Shown here one piece after another: positions 1 to 4,714 of a stretch of 4,714 nucleotides of DNA. This stretch comes from a virus (lineage: Duplodnaviria; Heunggongvirae; Uroviricota; Caudoviricetes), in IMG/VR virus record IMGVR_UViG_648276652_000010, positions 1 through 4,714 of that record, one strand, 5' to 3'. The position numbers and the translations under genes are program-made. Under the pieces are notes generated by a model that was given only the letters and a program-made list of their open reading frames with translations, was not told the DNA's origin and ran no database searches. How positions within the stretch are numbered: position 1 is the first letter of the stretch; each line of letters opens with the position of its first letter.

Positions 1-232
<232 letters not shown>

Positions 233-770: not shown

Positions 771-1154
771 TCACCTTGCTGTCAGTTGTTTTGATTTCCT
801 GTAGCCTGCCGCGTAAAGAGCTACATTTGGAAGACATACACCAGTTTCTGGTTGCCTATGCCCAAACTCATTCGCGTACACAATGGCCGCTCTCTCCAGA
901 TTGCGTCTGTATTCTTTCTGTTGCCAGATCACGTCCTGTGCCATGAACTTAATTGGCTTAGCGTCTTCTATGCGCTCAGGCGTTTCGTGAGTACCTTTAG
1001 CCTGAATCTGCGCTCTGCTTAGAGTAGGGCGGTGTAATACTTCTGAACTTATTGCTTCTTCGCGGGCCAGTACGCCGTTAGCTAATGCCTTTGCCTTTAA
1101 ACGCTCACGACGACGAGAACGTGAATTGCCTTTGAACTGAGTTCTGCGTGTCAT
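771..1154 (-). CDS. N: N-type transcription antiterminator, P22 gp24-like (127 aa)
   Basis: ATG at 1154 with AGGAGG 6 nt upstream. N-terminal arginine-rich motif NSRSRRRERLKAKALANG. The C-terminus ...LPNVALYAAGYRKSKQLTAR resembles the recalled P22 N terminus (...VALYAAGHRKSKQITAR). Lies directly downstream of PL and nutL. Confidence 0.7.
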   Translation of the reverse strand: MTRRTQFKGNSRSRRRERLKAKALANGVLAREEAISSEVLHRPTLSRAQIQAKGTHETPERIEDAKPIKFMAQDVIWQQKEYRRNLERAAIVYANEFGHRQPETGVCLPNVALYAAGYRKSKQLTAR

Positions 1155-1610: not shown

Positions 1611-1650
1611 AGGCAAAGAAAACCCGGCGCGGTGGCCGGGTTTATTTATT
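1611..1650. terminator. Intrinsic terminator hairpin, potentially bidirectional; t_imm-like end of the cI operon
   Basis: Stem cccggc (1623..1628) pairs with gccggg (1635..1640) around a 6-nt loop. The minus strand follows it with TTTTCTTTG and the plus strand with TTTATTTATT. It sits immediately 3' of the stop of the last cassette gene and before OL. Confidence 0.5.
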
Positions 1651-2296
1651 GCTTAGGAGCTTGTTGTGATGACGATTGGTTAGTTGGAGCGCTCGTTAAT
1701 GGTTGCTGTGTCGGTACCTGTATTATAATTGGAGCCGGGCTGGTTACTGATGGTGACTTGTCATTGCCGGAGATAATCCAACTTGAGGCTAACATCACGC
1801 CAGACAGAATCACAGTAACTAAAGTCAAGCCAACGGCCATCGCCCACTGAGTCGTTGTAAGTCCCGTTTTCAAACCGCCGATTTCACCTTTAATTTCAGC
1901 AATACCTCTCTCAATAGAAGAAAATTGCTGAGTATAATAGGTTTTAAAGTCAGCTGATTCGCGACGCATTTCCGCAGCAATAGACTCTACCTCTGATTTG
2001 TTTTGTGAAAGCTTTGCGTCAAGTTCTTCTCTGGACATTCCGCTCACGCTTACCTCCAGGGTATCACTCTTCATCGCTACATCTTCCTTACTTGGGCGCA
2101 AACCCGTTTCGTCCATGGCGTATGAAACTCTATTTGATACCTTAGCATCAATACCAATACTTTGGTACTGAGATGGATCCCCATAAGGAGAAACGGTTGT
2201 CGCTGCTAGGGTTGCACTAACTATAATACTTGGAAGAACTGATGATGTTGTTCCTGAGGTAGGTTGAACTGAAGAAACTGGCTTCAGTCTTTCCAT
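1646..2296 (-). CDS. Hypothetical membrane-anchored protein (216 aa): Ser/Thr-rich N-terminal region, central predicted coiled coil, one C-terminal TM helix, Ser/Pro/Gln-rich tail
   Basis: ATG at 2296 overlaps the stop of the upstream gene (ATGGAAAGACTGA), suggesting translational coupling. An alternative internal start at 2072..2074 has a strong AAGGAAG RBS and would give 142 aa. Hydrophobic segment AMAVGLTLVTVILSGVMLASSWII. Stop TAA at 1646..1648 abuts the terminator hairpin. Confidence 0.6.
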   Translation of the reverse strand: MERLKPVSSVQPTSGTTSSVLPSIIVSATLAATTVSPYGDPSQYQSIGIDAKVSNRVSYAMDETGLRPSKEDVAMKSDTLEVSVSGMSREELDAKLSQNKSEVESIAAEMRRESADFKTYYTQQFSSIERGIAEIKGEIGGLKTGLTTTQWAMAVGLTLVTVILSGVMLASSWIISGNDKSPSVTSPAPIIIQVPTQQPLTSAPTNQSSSQQAPKQ

Positions 2297-2550
2297 AGCC
2301 CATTATCCCTGAGAGCTACCTGTAATGATTTTACTAATGCAACAGCTTGATCCGGGCTCATTGAGACTGACATGTTAGGGGTCAACTCAACTTTTACTTG
2401 GAAGCTATTCTTTCCTTGCTCATCAGACTGCATGTGATGCTCAAATTCATGGCGGTAAAAAGTAATGATTGTTTCAGCACGATCAGGCGTAATAAGAACT
2501 GATGTGGCGGTCATGTGCTGAGGTATGATTTTAATAGTGTTATCTGACAT
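2284..2550 (-). CDS. Hypothetical soluble protein (88 aa; MSDNTIKIIPQHMTATSVLITPDRAETIITFYRHEFEHHMQ...)
   Basis: ATG at 2548..2550 (minus) is preceded by AAAGGA at about 6-nt spacing. The track ORF extends to an ATG at 2691 (135 aa), but that start has no Shine-Dalgarno. No recognisable family. The 3' end overlaps the next gene. Confidence 0.5.
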   Translation of the reverse strand: MSDNTIKIIPQHMTATSVLITPDRAETIITFYRHEFEHHMQSDEQGKNSFQVKVELTPNMSVSMSPDQAVALVKSLQVALRDNGLWKD

Positions 2551-2742
2551 AAGTATCCTTTTTGTTTCCTTAGTATTTTTTTGCATTGACATCAGAAATA
2601 GCGAATCCACAAGAGTATGAGTAAAGCTAATCAGTTTAGTGATACGGTGACTATTAAAGTGGTAAACCACATCAAAGCTCGCAGAGTGCATACCAGGCTG
2701 TCACACATGACAAAGTAACGAGGATGCCTGATCTCATAGCGC

Positions 2743-2898
2743 TCAAAGAGACATGCCGATAATGGCATTAACCACGCATGACGCCATAAACACGCCGCCA
2801 ACGATGAAGCTGGCTTGGTTCTTCCTGGTAGCGCCAAGAGTCAACAGAACCACTGAAAGGGCAAAAAAAGGTATCGCGATTATGCTGAACGTGTTCAT
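2743..2898 (-). CDS. Small membrane protein (51 aa; MNTFSIIAIPFFALSVVLLTLGATRKNQASFIVGGVFMASCVVNAIIGMSL), two predicted TM helices
   Basis: Not in the ORF track. ATG at 2896..2898 (minus) with GAGG at 5-nt spacing. Two hydrophobic stretches are separated by a basic loop, RKNQ. First gene after cI on the same strand, 77 bp downstream of the cI stop. Confidence 0.45.
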   Translation of the reverse strand: MNTFSIIAIPFFALSVVLLTLGATRKNQASFIVGGVFMASCVVNAIIGMSL

Positions 2899-2975
2899 GT
2901 TGACCTCAACTTATTTCGATTCTCCATCACCCTTAATCCGCCGCCCCATGTGTTTGTTGTGATTCGTTGCTGGCC

Positions 2976-3692
<717 letters not shown>

Positions 3693-3695
3693 TTA

Positions 3696-3765
3696 AATCT
3701 ATCACCGCAAGGGATAAATATCTAACACCGTGCGTGTTGACTATTTTACCTCTAGCGGTGATAAT
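3696..3765. promoter_or_regulatory. OR3 (3700..3716), OR2 (3723..3739), OR1 (3747..3763) with divergent promoters PRM and PR
   Basis: tatcaccgcaagggata and taacaccgtgcgtgttg match lambda OR3 and OR2. OR1 reads tacctctAgcggtgata, against lambda tacctctGgcggtgata as I recall it. PR -35 ttgact is at 3737..3742 and -10 gataat at 3760..3765. PRM hexamers lie on the minus strand at 3719..3724 and 3696..3701. Confidence 0.9.
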
Positions 3766-3780
3766 GGTTGCATGTACTAA

Positions 3781-3990
<210 letters not shown>

Positions 3991-4128: not shown

Positions 4129-4425
4129 ATGGAACAAACAAGTTACAGCAAACTATCCCAGCGTGACGTTGATCGCGCAGAAACAGATTTACTCATCAAC
4201 CTGTCAACGCTTACCCAGCGCGGTCTGGCAAAGATGATTGGCTGTCATGAATCGAAGATAAGCAGAACGGACTGGAGATTTATTGCTTCAGTCTTGTGTG
4301 CTTTCGGAATGGCATCAGACATCAGTCCGATTAGTAGAGCTTTTAAGTATGCGCTTGATGGAATCACAAAGAAAAAATCCCCGGTGGCCGCCGGGGACTC
4401 TAAGCAAATTGATATGCAATTCTGA
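4129..4425 (+). CDS. cII: CII-like transcriptional activator (98 aa), divergent from lambda CII except at the C-terminus
   Basis: In the lambda cII position. The HTH-like segment GLAKMIGCHESKISRTDW and the C-terminal ...KKKSPVAAGDSKQIDMQF parallel lambda ...NKKRPAATERSEQIQMEF. The 32-nt spacing to the O start matches lambda. Confidence 0.7.
   Translation: MEQTSYSKLSQRDVDRAETDLLINLSTLTQRGLAKMIGCHESKISRTDWRFIASVLCAFGMASDISPISRAFKYALDGITKKKSPVAAGDSKQIDMQF
4372..4397 (-). terminator. t_oop-like intrinsic terminator embedded in the 3' end of cII
   Basis: Minus strand reads GTCCCCGGCGGCCACCGGGGATTTTTTC: a 7-bp GC stem (4378..4384 with 4391..4397), 6-nt loop and a run of six T. Same position relative to the cII stop as lambda t_oop. 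Confidence 0.6.
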
Positions 4426-4461: not shown

Positions 4462-4714
4462 ACCGCCCCGGGAATCCTGGAGACTAAACTCCCTGAGAAA
4501 GAGGTAAACAGAATGACTAAAAATACTCGTTTTTCCCCCGAAGTCCGTCAGAGGGCGATTCGTATGGTTCTGGAAAGTCAGGGCGAATATGACTCACAGT
4601 GGGCGGCAATTTGTTCCATTGCCCCAAAGATTGGCTGTACACCGGAGACTCTGCGTGTCTGGGTACGCCAGCATGAGCGGGATACCGGAGGCGGTGATGG
4701 CGGGCTCACCACCG
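4459..4714 (+). mobile_element. IS3-family insertion sequence (IS629/IS3411-like), left inverted repeat and 5' part; continues beyond the window
   Basis: TGAACCGCCCCGGGAATCCTGGAGACTAAACT at 4459 matches the IS629 left end as I recall it, followed by orfA with an AGAGG RBS. Confidence 0.8.
4513..4714 (+). CDS. IS3-family transposase OrfA (HTH, InsE-like), 3' partial
   Basis: [67 protein letters not shown]... is the characteristic IS629-type OrfA N-terminus. The frame is open to the window end. Confidence 0.85.

What the first reader, a model, noticed from the sequence alone, without database searches (positions are those of the whole stretch)
2743..2898. Small membrane-peptide gene missed by the ORF track, immediately downstream of cI
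A 51-codon minus-strand ORF with an ATG and GAGG at 5-nt spacing encodes two hydrophobic helices separated by RKNQ. It is below the size cut-off of the supplied track. The only track ORF here (2753..2962, plus strand) has no RBS and runs antisense to the operon. Small membrane peptides co-expressed with repressors are often toxins, exclusion factors or partners of a membrane effector.
Basis: seen in the sequence. Interest (0 to 1): 0.6.

Follow-up and report, generated by a model that had tools for sequence, protein, structure and literature searches.

The report
Unannotated small membrane gene after cI
Just downstream of the repressor gene of an HK97-type prophage lies a real, conserved but uncharacterised 51-codon gene for a tiny two-helix membrane protein; it recurs behind many unrelated prophage repressors, its function is unknown, and the best guess is that it protects the lysogen.

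Summary
A 51-codon minus-strand ORF (2743-2898) has an ATG, a GAGG 5 nt upstream and two hydrophobic helices joined by TRKNQ. It starts 77 nt after the cI stop, in an HK97-type immunity region.

It is a real gene. About 70 homologues across Enterobacterales keep the 48-57 aa length, the start, the stop and a Shine-Dalgarno motif. Substitutions follow pos2 < pos1 << pos3, and dN/dS is about 0.14-0.23. The antisense ORF, annotated in phage HK225, loses its ATG or gains stops in diverged homologues.

The gene is missing from the HK97 reference annotation and from most RefSeq E. coli genomes. It does exist as a "hypothetical protein" (WP_001091427.1). It has no Pfam, PHROG, NCBIfam, PADLOC or PDB relative.

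Phage-borne copies always lie 9-104 nt behind a prophage repressor. These repressors belong to four unrelated families, and the cargo that follows varies: gp49-gp48, HigBA and others. More distant copies stand alone in chromosomes. gp49-gp48 also occurs without the gene, so it is not an obligate cassette partner.

The most likely reading is a repressor-co-transcribed inner-membrane accessory protein acting inside the membrane. The function (exclusion or immunity) is inferred, not shown.

The parts
2743..2898 (-). sORF51: coding sequence for a 51-aa two-transmembrane-helix protein (stop codon at 2743-2745).
   Evidence: ORF found. Homologues of conserved length found. Codon-position pattern and dN/dS. 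Hairpin model. PGAP calls the same ORF WP_001091427.1 in NZ_CP148507.
2904..2907 (-). Shine-Dalgarno core GAGG, 5 nt before the ATG.
   Evidence: Read from the sequence. An SD-like core at the right spacing is present in 34 of 41 unique upstream contexts of homologues, even where the surrounding DNA is unrelated.
2911..2950 (-). Non-coding remnant in the cI-sORF spacer, identical to the 3' coding end of RacR-like 129-aa prophage repressors (...YMGRRIKGDGESK*).
   Evidence: Alignment A4. It indicates that the sORF module came from a RacR-type immunity region.
2976..3689 (-). cI repressor (lambda/HK97 immunity), the upstream gene on the same strand.
   Evidence: 100% identical to HK97 Gp50.
3700..3763 (.). 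OR operators with PR and PRM, the presumed source of the cI-sORF transcript in a lysogen.
   Evidence: The HK97 record annotates OR at the corresponding place. A PR-like hexamer pair lies at 3737-3765. PRM activity is inferred from lambda.
2551..2742 (-). 192-nt spacer between sORF and gp49. No ORF, no Rfam hit and no unusual fold.
   Evidence: z-score +0.85. No promoter-like site and no terminator-like site within the spacer.
2284..2550 (-). gp49 (88 aa, PHROG 26809, unknown function). Downstream cargo, not an obligate partner of sORF.
1646..2296 (-). gp48 (216 aa, PHROG 5820; a hydrophobic stretch near the C-terminus, judged by reading the sequence, not computed). Overlaps gp49 by 13 nt.
1620..1643 (.). 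G+C-rich palindrome with T-runs directly after the gp48 stop, the likely end of the cI operon.
   Evidence: The T-run on the minus strand was read.
2753..2962 (+). Antisense ORF (annotated as HK225_046 in phage HK225). Not a gene: it is a shadow frame sharing third codon positions with sORF51.
   Evidence: Its ATG is lost in 9 of the 20 distinct homologue sequences, it has in-frame stops in L012 and L015, and its dN/dS is higher.

Best explanation
sORF51 is a genuine gene for a 51-residue inner-membrane helical hairpin. The basic loop (TRKNQ) is predicted to face the cytoplasm, with both very short ends in the periplasm. In HK97-type prophages it is most likely the second cistron of the repressor operon: PRM - cI - sORF51 - gp49 - gp48 - terminator. 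It would therefore be made in the lysogen and shut off on induction. It works on its own, not as a subunit of the gp49-gp48 cassette. Almost the whole peptide is buried in the bilayer, and the conserved residues are Pro10, Gly34/Gly35, Asn44 and Gly48. The proposed mechanism is therefore helix-helix binding to a host inner-membrane protein or complex, changing what can pass the inner membrane. The most likely benefit is protection of the lysogen, for example by blocking incoming phage DNA as HK97 gp15 does. Shown here: it is coding, it is under purifying selection, it has a two-helix hydrophobic architecture, it is recurrently linked to repressors, and it is independent of the cargo. Inferred: transcription from PRM, topology, the intramembrane partner and the protective function. 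Confidence by step: real translated gene about 0.9; co-transcribed with cI about 0.75; acts independently of gp48/gp49 about 0.8; protective or exclusion function about 0.3.
For: 1. Length. The 35 homologues at 67-98% identity are nearly all exactly 51 aa. A profile search of 1.84 billion representative proteins finds 17 clusters, nearly all 48-57 aa (one truncated 36-aa sequence). A further 38 proteins come from Erwinia, Pantoea, Mixta, Franconibacter and Leclercia.
2. Coding signature. Mean pairwise differences per codon position are 10.2 / 5.7 / 26.0. pN/pS is 0.23 and Jukes-Cantor dN/dS is 0.135, against 0.40 and 0.28 for the antisense frame. The antisense ATG is lost in 9 homologues, and two have in-frame stops.
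3. Translation signal. An SD core is present in 34 of 41 unique upstream contexts.
4. Mosaic boundaries. Breakpoints fall within a few nucleotides of the stop codon, and at the ribosome-binding site in L043 and L044.
5. Structure. The AlphaFold hairpin has pLDDT 87.5.
6. Repressor linkage. Every copy at least 80% identical lies 9-104 nt behind a prophage repressor. The repressors fall into four unrelated families: lambda cI type, HK225 CI type, an L043/L044 S24 type and a RacR-like HTH type. In several loci the gap is only 9-21 nt, which leaves no room for a promoter.
7. No predicted terminator or promoter lies between cI and sORF51.
8. Variable cargo follows it: gp49-gp48, HigB/HigA, DUF6932 plus a 309-aa protein, an SDH-protease-like protein, or a 64-aa membrane peptide.
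9. gp49-gp48 occurs without the sORF in Klebsiella phage ST15-VIM1phi2.1.
10. Precedents. Accessory genes on PRM transcripts usually serve exclusion (PMC3564112). HK97 gp15 is a small inner-membrane exclusion protein with non-phage YebO homologues in Enterobacteriaceae (PMC3594210).
Against: There is no expression or phenotype data of any kind, and no paper mentions the ORF. The promoter and terminator scans are simple consensus scans, so a weak internal promoter or Rho-dependent termination after cI is not excluded. Stand-alone chromosomal homologues under purifying selection show that the protein has a role needing no phage. This fits a general physiological function at least as well as phage exclusion. 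In all 51 complete E. coli genomes that carry it, it sits next to gp49-gp48, so a functional link in that lineage cannot be ruled out. No sequence relation to any known exclusion protein was found.
Confidence: 0.55

Rival explanations
1. A general host-physiology small membrane protein, meaning a regulator of a transporter, sensor or envelope enzyme in the manner of MgtS, AcrZ or PmrR. On this view the phage has merely picked it up, and its benefit to the lysogen is stress or envelope fitness rather than defence.
For: Stand-alone chromosomal copies occur in Atlantibacter, Klebsiella, Franconibacter, Erwinia and Mixta, and between dsbB and a GvpU-like gene in one unidentified (metagenomic) Enterobacterales contig. 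Atlantibacter copies carry a conserved promoter-like element (TTGAAT-N18-TATCCT) in different flanks. The family is under purifying selection. Neighbours are often small stress genes (csp, dinI, iraP, pmrD).
Against: No conserved operon partner or neighbour points to a target, because the contexts differ from genus to genus. This reading does not explain why the phage clade is always placed directly behind the repressor.
Confidence: 0.2
2. A subunit or membrane anchor of the gp49-gp48 cassette.
For: All 51 complete E. coli genomes with the ORF also carry gp49-gp48 immediately downstream. The trio moves together behind four repressor types. gp48 appears, from reading its sequence, to carry a C-terminal transmembrane helix.
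Against: The sORF occurs with HigBA, DUF6932, an SDH-protease-like gene or no cargo at all, and alone in chromosomes. A diverged gp49-gp48 pair follows CI directly, with only a 75-nt gap and no sORF, in Klebsiella phage ST15-VIM1phi2.1. A 192-nt spacer separates the sORF from gp49, whereas gp49 and gp48 overlap.
Confidence: 0.1
3. A membrane-depolarising toxin, either type I toxin-like or the effector of an abortive-infection switch.
For: It is small and very hydrophobic (GRAVY 1.42). It sits in a locus that elsewhere carries toxin-antitoxin cargo (HigBA, HicAB).
Against: It has two helices and no charged tail, unlike Hok, TisB and Ldr. No promoter-like site for an antisense RNA lies on the plus strand at 2500-3000. 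No structured leader was found. It is a single copy in each of the 51 complete E. coli genomes that carry it. It would be expressed constitutively with the repressor. Stand-alone chromosomal copies have no visible antidote.
Confidence: 0.08
4. An orphan immunity protein against a class II microcin or another pore-forming bacteriocin.
For: Known class II microcin immunity proteins are 51-216 aa inner-membrane proteins with predicted transmembrane helices and cannot be recognised by sequence (PMC10233263). The size and architecture fit.
Against: None of the roughly 20 neighbourhoods examined contains a double-glycine precursor, a C39-peptidase ABC exporter or a membrane fusion protein. There are no plasmid homologues.
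Confidence: 0.07
5. Not a protein gene: the conservation reflects the antisense ORF or a DNA/RNA element.
For: The plus-strand ORF is longer (69 aa) and was annotated in HK225. It shares third codon positions with the sORF, so it also looks conserved.
Against: The antisense ATG is lost in 9 homologues, L012 and L015 have stops, its end is variable, and its dN/dS is higher. The sense start, stop, length and SD are conserved. There is no Rfam hit.
Confidence: 0.03

Closest known systems
Accessory genes on the PRM (repressor) transcript of lambdoid prophages: lambda rexA-rexB, 434 hex, 933W stk
   Same: Same position and strand, directly after the repressor and before the operon terminator. Dispensable for the phage life cycle: absent from lambda and from HK106/mEp234. 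Belongs to a slot with highly variable content.
   Different: No sequence relation to any of them. Far smaller, at 51 aa against 144-279 aa. Unlike any of them, it is shared between many immunity types and has stand-alone chromosomal homologues. Transcription from PRM is not shown.
HK97 gp15 / YebO family (small inner-membrane superinfection-exclusion protein, PMC3594210)
   Same: Encoded by the same phage. A small inner-membrane protein expected to be made in the lysogen. Homologues are restricted to enterobacteria and many are not phage-encoded, which suggests capture of a host small-protein gene.
   Different: No YebO/Pfam match. Located in the immunity region rather than the tail operon. 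No own promoter or terminator in the HK97 context. No exclusion phenotype has been tested.
Sie2009-type and similar superinfection-exclusion genes in the lysogeny module next to the repressor of lactococcal and streptococcal phages (recalled from my own knowledge, not checked here)
   Same: A small membrane-associated protein encoded beside the repressor and expressed in the lysogen.
   Different: Different host phylum, no sequence relation, and function untested here.
Class II microcin immunity proteins (PMC10233263)
   Same: Size at the lower end of the known range (51 aa), with predicted transmembrane helices and an inner-membrane location.
   Different: No microcin precursor or exporter nearby in any context, and no plasmid copies.

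Membership tests
Repressor-operon (PRM) accessory genes of lambdoid prophages | Lies downstream of the prophage repressor on the same strand, before the operon terminator. | tested here: met
   The gap after cI is 77 nt. The terminator-like palindrome lies at 1620-1643, after gp48. The same arrangement follows four unrelated repressor families, with gaps of 9-104 nt.
Repressor-operon (PRM) accessory genes of lambdoid prophages | Transcribed with the repressor in the lysogen. | not testable with these tools
   Only indirect evidence: no promoter-like or terminator-like site between 2899 and 2975, and gaps of 9-21 nt in other prophages.
Repressor-operon (PRM) accessory genes of lambdoid prophages | Dispensable for lytic and lysogenic growth. 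| tested here: inconclusive
   Phages with the same cI (HK106, mEp234) lack it, which argues for dispensability. No deletion has been tested.
Moron in the sense of Juhala et al. (as summarised in PMC3594210) | Own promoter and terminator, and a G+C content differing from its neighbours. | tested here: not met
   No promoter-like site upstream was found, and the only terminator-like hit nearby is a weak 5-bp hairpin inside the ORF's own 3' end, judged to be chance, in the HK97 context. G+C is 0.48, against 0.455 for cI and 0.41 for gp49, a modest difference. Chromosomal Atlantibacter copies do have a conserved promoter-like element.
HK97 gp15 / YebO superinfection-exclusion family | Sequence membership (Pfam YebO-like). 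| tested here: not met
   No such hit at E <= 1 in Pfam, PHROGs or NCBIfam.
HK97 gp15 / YebO superinfection-exclusion family | Blocks DNA entry of superinfecting phage. | not testable with these tools
   Needs plating and injection assays.
Type I toxin-antitoxin | An overlapping or adjacent antisense RNA gene with its own promoter. | tested here: not met
   No sigma-70-like site on the plus strand at 2500-3000 and no Rfam family.
Type I toxin-antitoxin | A small, single-helix hydrophobic toxin that is toxic on expression. | tested here: inconclusive
   It is small and hydrophobic but has two helices. Toxicity is untested.
Known anti-phage defence systems (PADLOC-DB v2) | A match to a defence-protein model. 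| tested here: not met
   No hit for sORF51, gp49 or gp48.
Class II microcin immunity proteins | Encoded next to a double-glycine pre-microcin and a PCAT/MFP exporter. | tested here: not met
   None is present among the called neighbours.
gp49-gp48 cassette (PHROG 26809 + PHROG 5820) | Obligate co-occurrence with the cassette. | tested here: not met
   The sORF occurs without the cassette, and the cassette occurs without the sORF.

The most novel reading that the evidence does not exclude
sORF51 founds a new class of repressor-linked, wholly intramembrane lysogen-protection factor. On this reading it is a mobile 51-residue hairpin that many unrelated temperate phages place as the first gene after their repressor. 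It would act by plugging or re-tuning a host inner-membrane protein, blocking entry of foreign phage DNA or membrane-active toxins. Alternatively it would report envelope state to the prophage. The slot behind the repressor may be a general home for such micro-proteins, since HK106 and mEp234 carry an unrelated 32-aa hydrophobic ORF in the same place.
Probability: 0.25. Interest if true: 0.65.

Novelty: new member of a known kind. Interest (0 to 1): 0.42.

Why it matters
HK97 is a reference lambdoid phage, and its immunity region is assumed to be fully annotated. A conserved, selected gene between cI and gene 49 is absent from the reference record. In HK225 it is replaced by a spurious antisense ORF.

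The gene is the most widely shared element of the variable slot behind the repressor. That slot elsewhere holds Rex, Hex, Stk, BstA and toxin-antitoxin systems. The sORF crosses at least four unrelated repressor families.

If it is an exclusion or immunity factor, it would be one of the smallest known, and it would be easy to test with one start-codon mutant and one plasmid. It is also a practical reminder that size cut-offs hide micro-proteins in heavily studied loci. A shadow ORF that shares wobble positions with the true gene can be mistaken for it.

Tried and rejected
1. Family searches for sORF51 in Pfam, PHROGs, NCBIfam and PADLOC gave only sub-threshold compositional hits (PspC TM region at 16.6 bits against a cut-off of 27; SCO7613 C-terminal domain at 18.4 against 45). 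These were rejected.
2. A PDB profile search gave nothing.
3. Rfam on the whole window returned only a chance lncRNA hit.
4. Folding of the 192-nt spacer was no better than shuffled sequence.
5. Literature searches for HK97 gp48/gp49, for WP_001091427, and for small membrane proteins of HK97 lysogens found nothing on this ORF.
6. The small genes behind racR in K-12 Rac (ydaG, ydaF) were checked. They are soluble and unrelated.
7. A plasmid search found no homologue.
8. LexA-box and sigma-28 motif scans upstream of chromosomal homologues gave only isolated weak hits, some of them inside the dinI-like coding sequence. They were not pursued.
9. Structure prediction of gp49 from a 4-sequence alignment gave pLDDT 42.5, too poor for a fold search.
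10. A fold search with the sORF hairpin was not run, because a two-helix hairpin matches anything.
11. The cheV-like neighbours (2 of 4 distant contexts) and the GvpU-like neighbours (2 contexts) were noted but judged too few to interpret.

Full report
**What the window is**

The 4.7-kb window is an HK97-type lambdoid immunity region. Positions 1600-2980 are 99.6% identical to phage HK97 and 99.8% identical to HK225. The HK97 record gives the gene order, which maps onto the window as follows:
- N at 771-1154 (minus strand)
- OL/PL at about 1380-1460
- a G+C-rich terminator palindrome at 1620-1643
- gp48 at 1646-2296 (minus)
- gp49 at 2284-2550 (minus)
- cI at 2976-3689 (minus)
- OR
- cro at 3790-3990 (plus)
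- cII at 4129-4425 (plus)

The ends of the window are IS sequences: the 3' end of an IS21 istB at 1-163, and an IS3-family orfA from 4513. This copy is therefore a prophage fragment.

**Observation**

- It spans 2743-2898 on the minus strand and has 51 codons.
- The ATG is at 2898-2896, GAGG at 2907-2904, and the spacer is 5 nt.
- The product is MNTFSIIAIPFFALSVVLLTLGATRKNQASFIVGGVFMASCVVNAIIGMSL.
- The only charged residues are R25 and K26. Two hydrophobic maxima fall at residues 4-22 and 31-49.
- AlphaFold2 on the family alignment gives a helical hairpin, H3-25 and H28-50, with mean pLDDT 87.5.
- The ORF starts 77 nt after the cI stop and ends 192 nt before gp49.

An ORF of 51 codons means nothing by itself, because the window has 55 ORFs of at least 30 aa. 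The case rests on comparative evidence.

**Is it a gene?**

A search of 5.8 billion proteins found 35 homologues at 67-98% identity. Nearly all are exactly 51 aa. They come from Atlantibacter, Klebsiella, Kosakonia, Lelliottia, Raoultella and Enterobacter. A profile search of 1.84 billion cluster representatives found 17 clusters, nearly all 48-57 aa; the exception is one truncated 36-aa sequence. A second profile search added 38 proteins from Erwinia, Pantoea, Mixta, Izhakiella, Franconibacter and Leclercia.

Conserved features across the family are the start M-N/S-T-F, Pro10, a basic loop (K26), Gly34/35, Asn44 and Gly48.

I fetched the DNA of homologues and compared 21 distinct nucleotide versions.
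- Mean pairwise differences at codon positions 1, 2 and 3 are 10.2, 5.7 and 26.0.
- pN/pS is 0.23, and Jukes-Cantor dN/dS is 0.135.
- A Shine-Dalgarno core sits at the right distance in 34 of 41 unique upstream contexts, including contexts with no other similarity.
- Mosaic breakpoints between prophages fall within a few bases of the stop codon (L039, L043, L044). In L043 and L044 they also fall at the ribosome-binding site.

**The antisense ORF**

The plus-strand ORF 2753-2962 needs care. Its codons share third positions with sORF51, so it stays open and looks conserved in tblastn. It fails on several counts.
- Its ATG is lost in 9 of the 20 distinct homologue sequences.
- It has in-frame stops in L012 and L015.
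- Its end is variable.
- Its dN/dS is about twice that of the sense frame.
- Its would-be second codon position is more variable than its first (47 against 27 extra alleles, binomial p = 0.027).

HK225 annotates this shadow ORF as HK225_046. That annotation is very probably an error.

**Annotation status**

The ORF is not annotated in the HK97 records. It is also missing from most of the 51 complete E. coli genomes that carry it, out of 5,426 searched. PGAP does call it in a few of them, as WP_001091427.1. The exact protein is held by NCBI and UniRef as "hypothetical protein" and was seen on 772 contigs. One close relative is named "putative membrane protein". No Pfam, PHROG, NCBIfam, PADLOC or PDB relative exists. 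No paper that I could find mentions it.

**Context, the most informative result**

Every copy at least 80% identical to the HK97 one lies directly behind a prophage repressor on the same strand, 9-104 nt away. These repressors fall into four families with no or only marginal similarity to one another:
- lambda/HK97 cI and a 72%-identical variant
- the HK225 CI type and variants at 73-76% identity
- an S24-peptidase type (L043, L044, L075)
- RacR-like HTH proteins of about 129 aa (L022, L038-L040, L062, L064)

What follows the ORF differs between loci:
- gp49-gp48
- HigB/HigA
- a DUF6932 protein plus a 309-aa protein
- an SDH-protease-like protein
- proteins of 98 aa and 275 aa
- a 64-aa membrane peptide

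In several loci a convergent DUF2767-type gene closes the slot.

The 77-nt spacer in HK97 contains a 40-nt stretch (2911-2950) identical to the 3' coding end of the RacR-like repressors. The module was therefore probably captured from a RacR-type immunity region.

More distant family members stand alone in chromosomes:
- after a dinI-like gene in Klebsiella
- beside pmrD in Atlantibacter, with a conserved promoter-like element
- beyond a prophage tail-tip gene in Kosakonia
- between dsbB and a GvpU-like gene in one metagenomic contig
- convergent with a cheV-like gene in Franconibacter and Erwinia tracheiphila
- near fliE in Mixta
- in yet another setting in Erwinia toletana

No neighbour is conserved across genera.

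**Relation to gp49-gp48**

In E. coli the three genes always travel together. Two facts argue against an obligate partnership. First, the ORF occurs without the pair, as listed above. Second, a diverged gp49-gp48 pair follows CI directly in Klebsiella phage ST15-VIM1phi2.1, with a 75-nt gap and no sORF. gp49 and gp48 overlap by 13 nt, whereas sORF51 is separated from gp49 by 192 nt of featureless spacer. I conclude that sORF51 and gp49-gp48 are independent modules.

**How it probably works**

Shown:
- It is a selected protein-coding gene.
- Its product is almost entirely two hydrophobic helices with a basic connecting loop.
- In phages it is tied to the 3' end of repressor genes.

Inferred from the lambda paradigm, and from the absence of promoter-like or terminator-like sites between cI and the ORF: it is the second cistron of the PRM transcript. 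It would then be present in the lysogen and absent after induction. Gaps of 9-21 nt in other prophages make co-transcription there hard to avoid.

Inferred from the positive-inside rule: the loop is cytoplasmic and both termini are periplasmic.

Nothing protrudes from the membrane. The conserved residues are a helix-kinking Pro, small Gly/Ala/Ser residues and one Asn. Any activity must therefore be helix-helix contact with itself or with a host inner-membrane protein.

Accessory genes on repressor transcripts most commonly protect the lysogen against other phages (PMC3564112). HK97's own gp15 is a small inner-membrane protein with non-phage YebO homologues that blocks DNA entry (PMC3594210). 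By analogy I favour protection of the lysogen at the inner membrane, at only about 0.3 probability.

The chromosomal stand-alone homologues fit a general envelope-physiology role at least as well (about 0.2). The toxin reading, the cassette-subunit reading and the orphan bacteriocin-immunity reading are each about 0.1 or less, for the reasons listed under the rival explanations.

**Verdict**

The "missed gene" claim holds for the phage reference records but not for all databases. The partner-of-the-cassette idea is not supported.

This is a new, uncharacterised member of a known kind: small accessory proteins encoded behind prophage repressors. Its interest is moderate. It is an overlooked gene in a model phage. 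It is unusually promiscuous across immunity types. It can be tested cheaply.

Noticed in passing
L053 2349-2447 (minus), phage HK106; the same sequence in mEp234 and mEp506: In phages with the same cI but HicAB cargo, the slot right after cI holds a different unannotated 32-aa hydrophobic ORF (MRIGIVFPILVFIVAMGFMAWFIIDGYATPSG) with a GGGA motif 7 nt upstream. A 70%-identical match lies next to the CI gene of Klebsiella phage ST974-OXA48phi18.2. Small hydrophobic peptides may be a general feature of this slot.
   Followed up: partly
window 2911-2950: The non-coding spacer between cI and sORF51 contains a 40-nt stretch identical to the 3' coding end of RacR-like repressors (...YMGRRIKGDGESK*). 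This is a recombination scar showing where the module came from. The same scar is present in HK225, and part of it in HK106.
   Followed up: yes
L002 3652-3852 (plus), locus tag HK225_046; window 2753-2962 (plus): HK225 annotates the antisense shadow ORF instead of sORF51. It also annotates a 33-aa plus-strand ORF (HK225_045) flagged 'poor ribosome-binding site'. Both are probably mis-annotations.
   Followed up: partly
L068 2217-3019 (Klebsiella phage ST15-VIM1phi2.1); also KY271400: A diverged gp49-like/gp48-like pair (gp48 32-36% identical) follows a 128-aa CI directly and shows the same 13-nt overlap. gp49-gp48 is therefore a conserved two-gene module of unknown function behind repressors. 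It is absent from PADLOC.
   Followed up: partly
L038 4512-4748, L039 5526-5750, L043 5582-5779, L044 5885-6097, L062 4853-5062; L004 4299-4520 and L048 5304-5501: A convergent 65-78-aa gene closes the variable cargo slot in several prophages. It matches DUF2767 in L038 and L062; the others look similar but fall below threshold. The same kind of gene directly follows the sORF homologue in Klebsiella chromosomes, which suggests those chromosomal loci are immunity-region remnants.
   Followed up: partly
L005, L007, L010, L014 and L045, about 40-75 nt upstream of the sORF homologue: Atlantibacter copies share a conserved upstream element (CTACAAGAAAAGGGAGTTGAAT-N18-TATCCT) in different flanking contexts. 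It looks like a sigma-70 promoter with an upstream site, so these copies are independent transcription units.
   Followed up: no
L043 3971-4123: This prophage copy has a 1-nt deletion in the T-run of codons 11-12, so the N-terminus is out of frame. It is a probable pseudogene or a sequencing error. An intact version of the same variant exists as P0010.
   Followed up: no
window 1-163 and 4513-4714: The immunity region is bounded by the 3' end of an IS21-family istB and by an IS3-family (IS1203-like) orfA inserted just after cII. The replication genes O and P are missing from the window, so this copy is a defective prophage fragment.
   Followed up: partly
L054 4228-5190 and L059 4496-5455; L057 3513-3926 and L066 2908-3405: Distant chromosomal homologues are twice convergent with a cheV-like gene (CheW plus a receiver domain) and twice adjacent to a GvpU-like gene. 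These cases are too few to interpret.
   Followed up: no
L038 4258-4452: In one prophage the cargo after the sORF homologue is another small predicted membrane peptide of 64 aa (MREVLFFIAVTVISITAIFIWIIFFGP...), which has no Pfam family.
   Followed up: no
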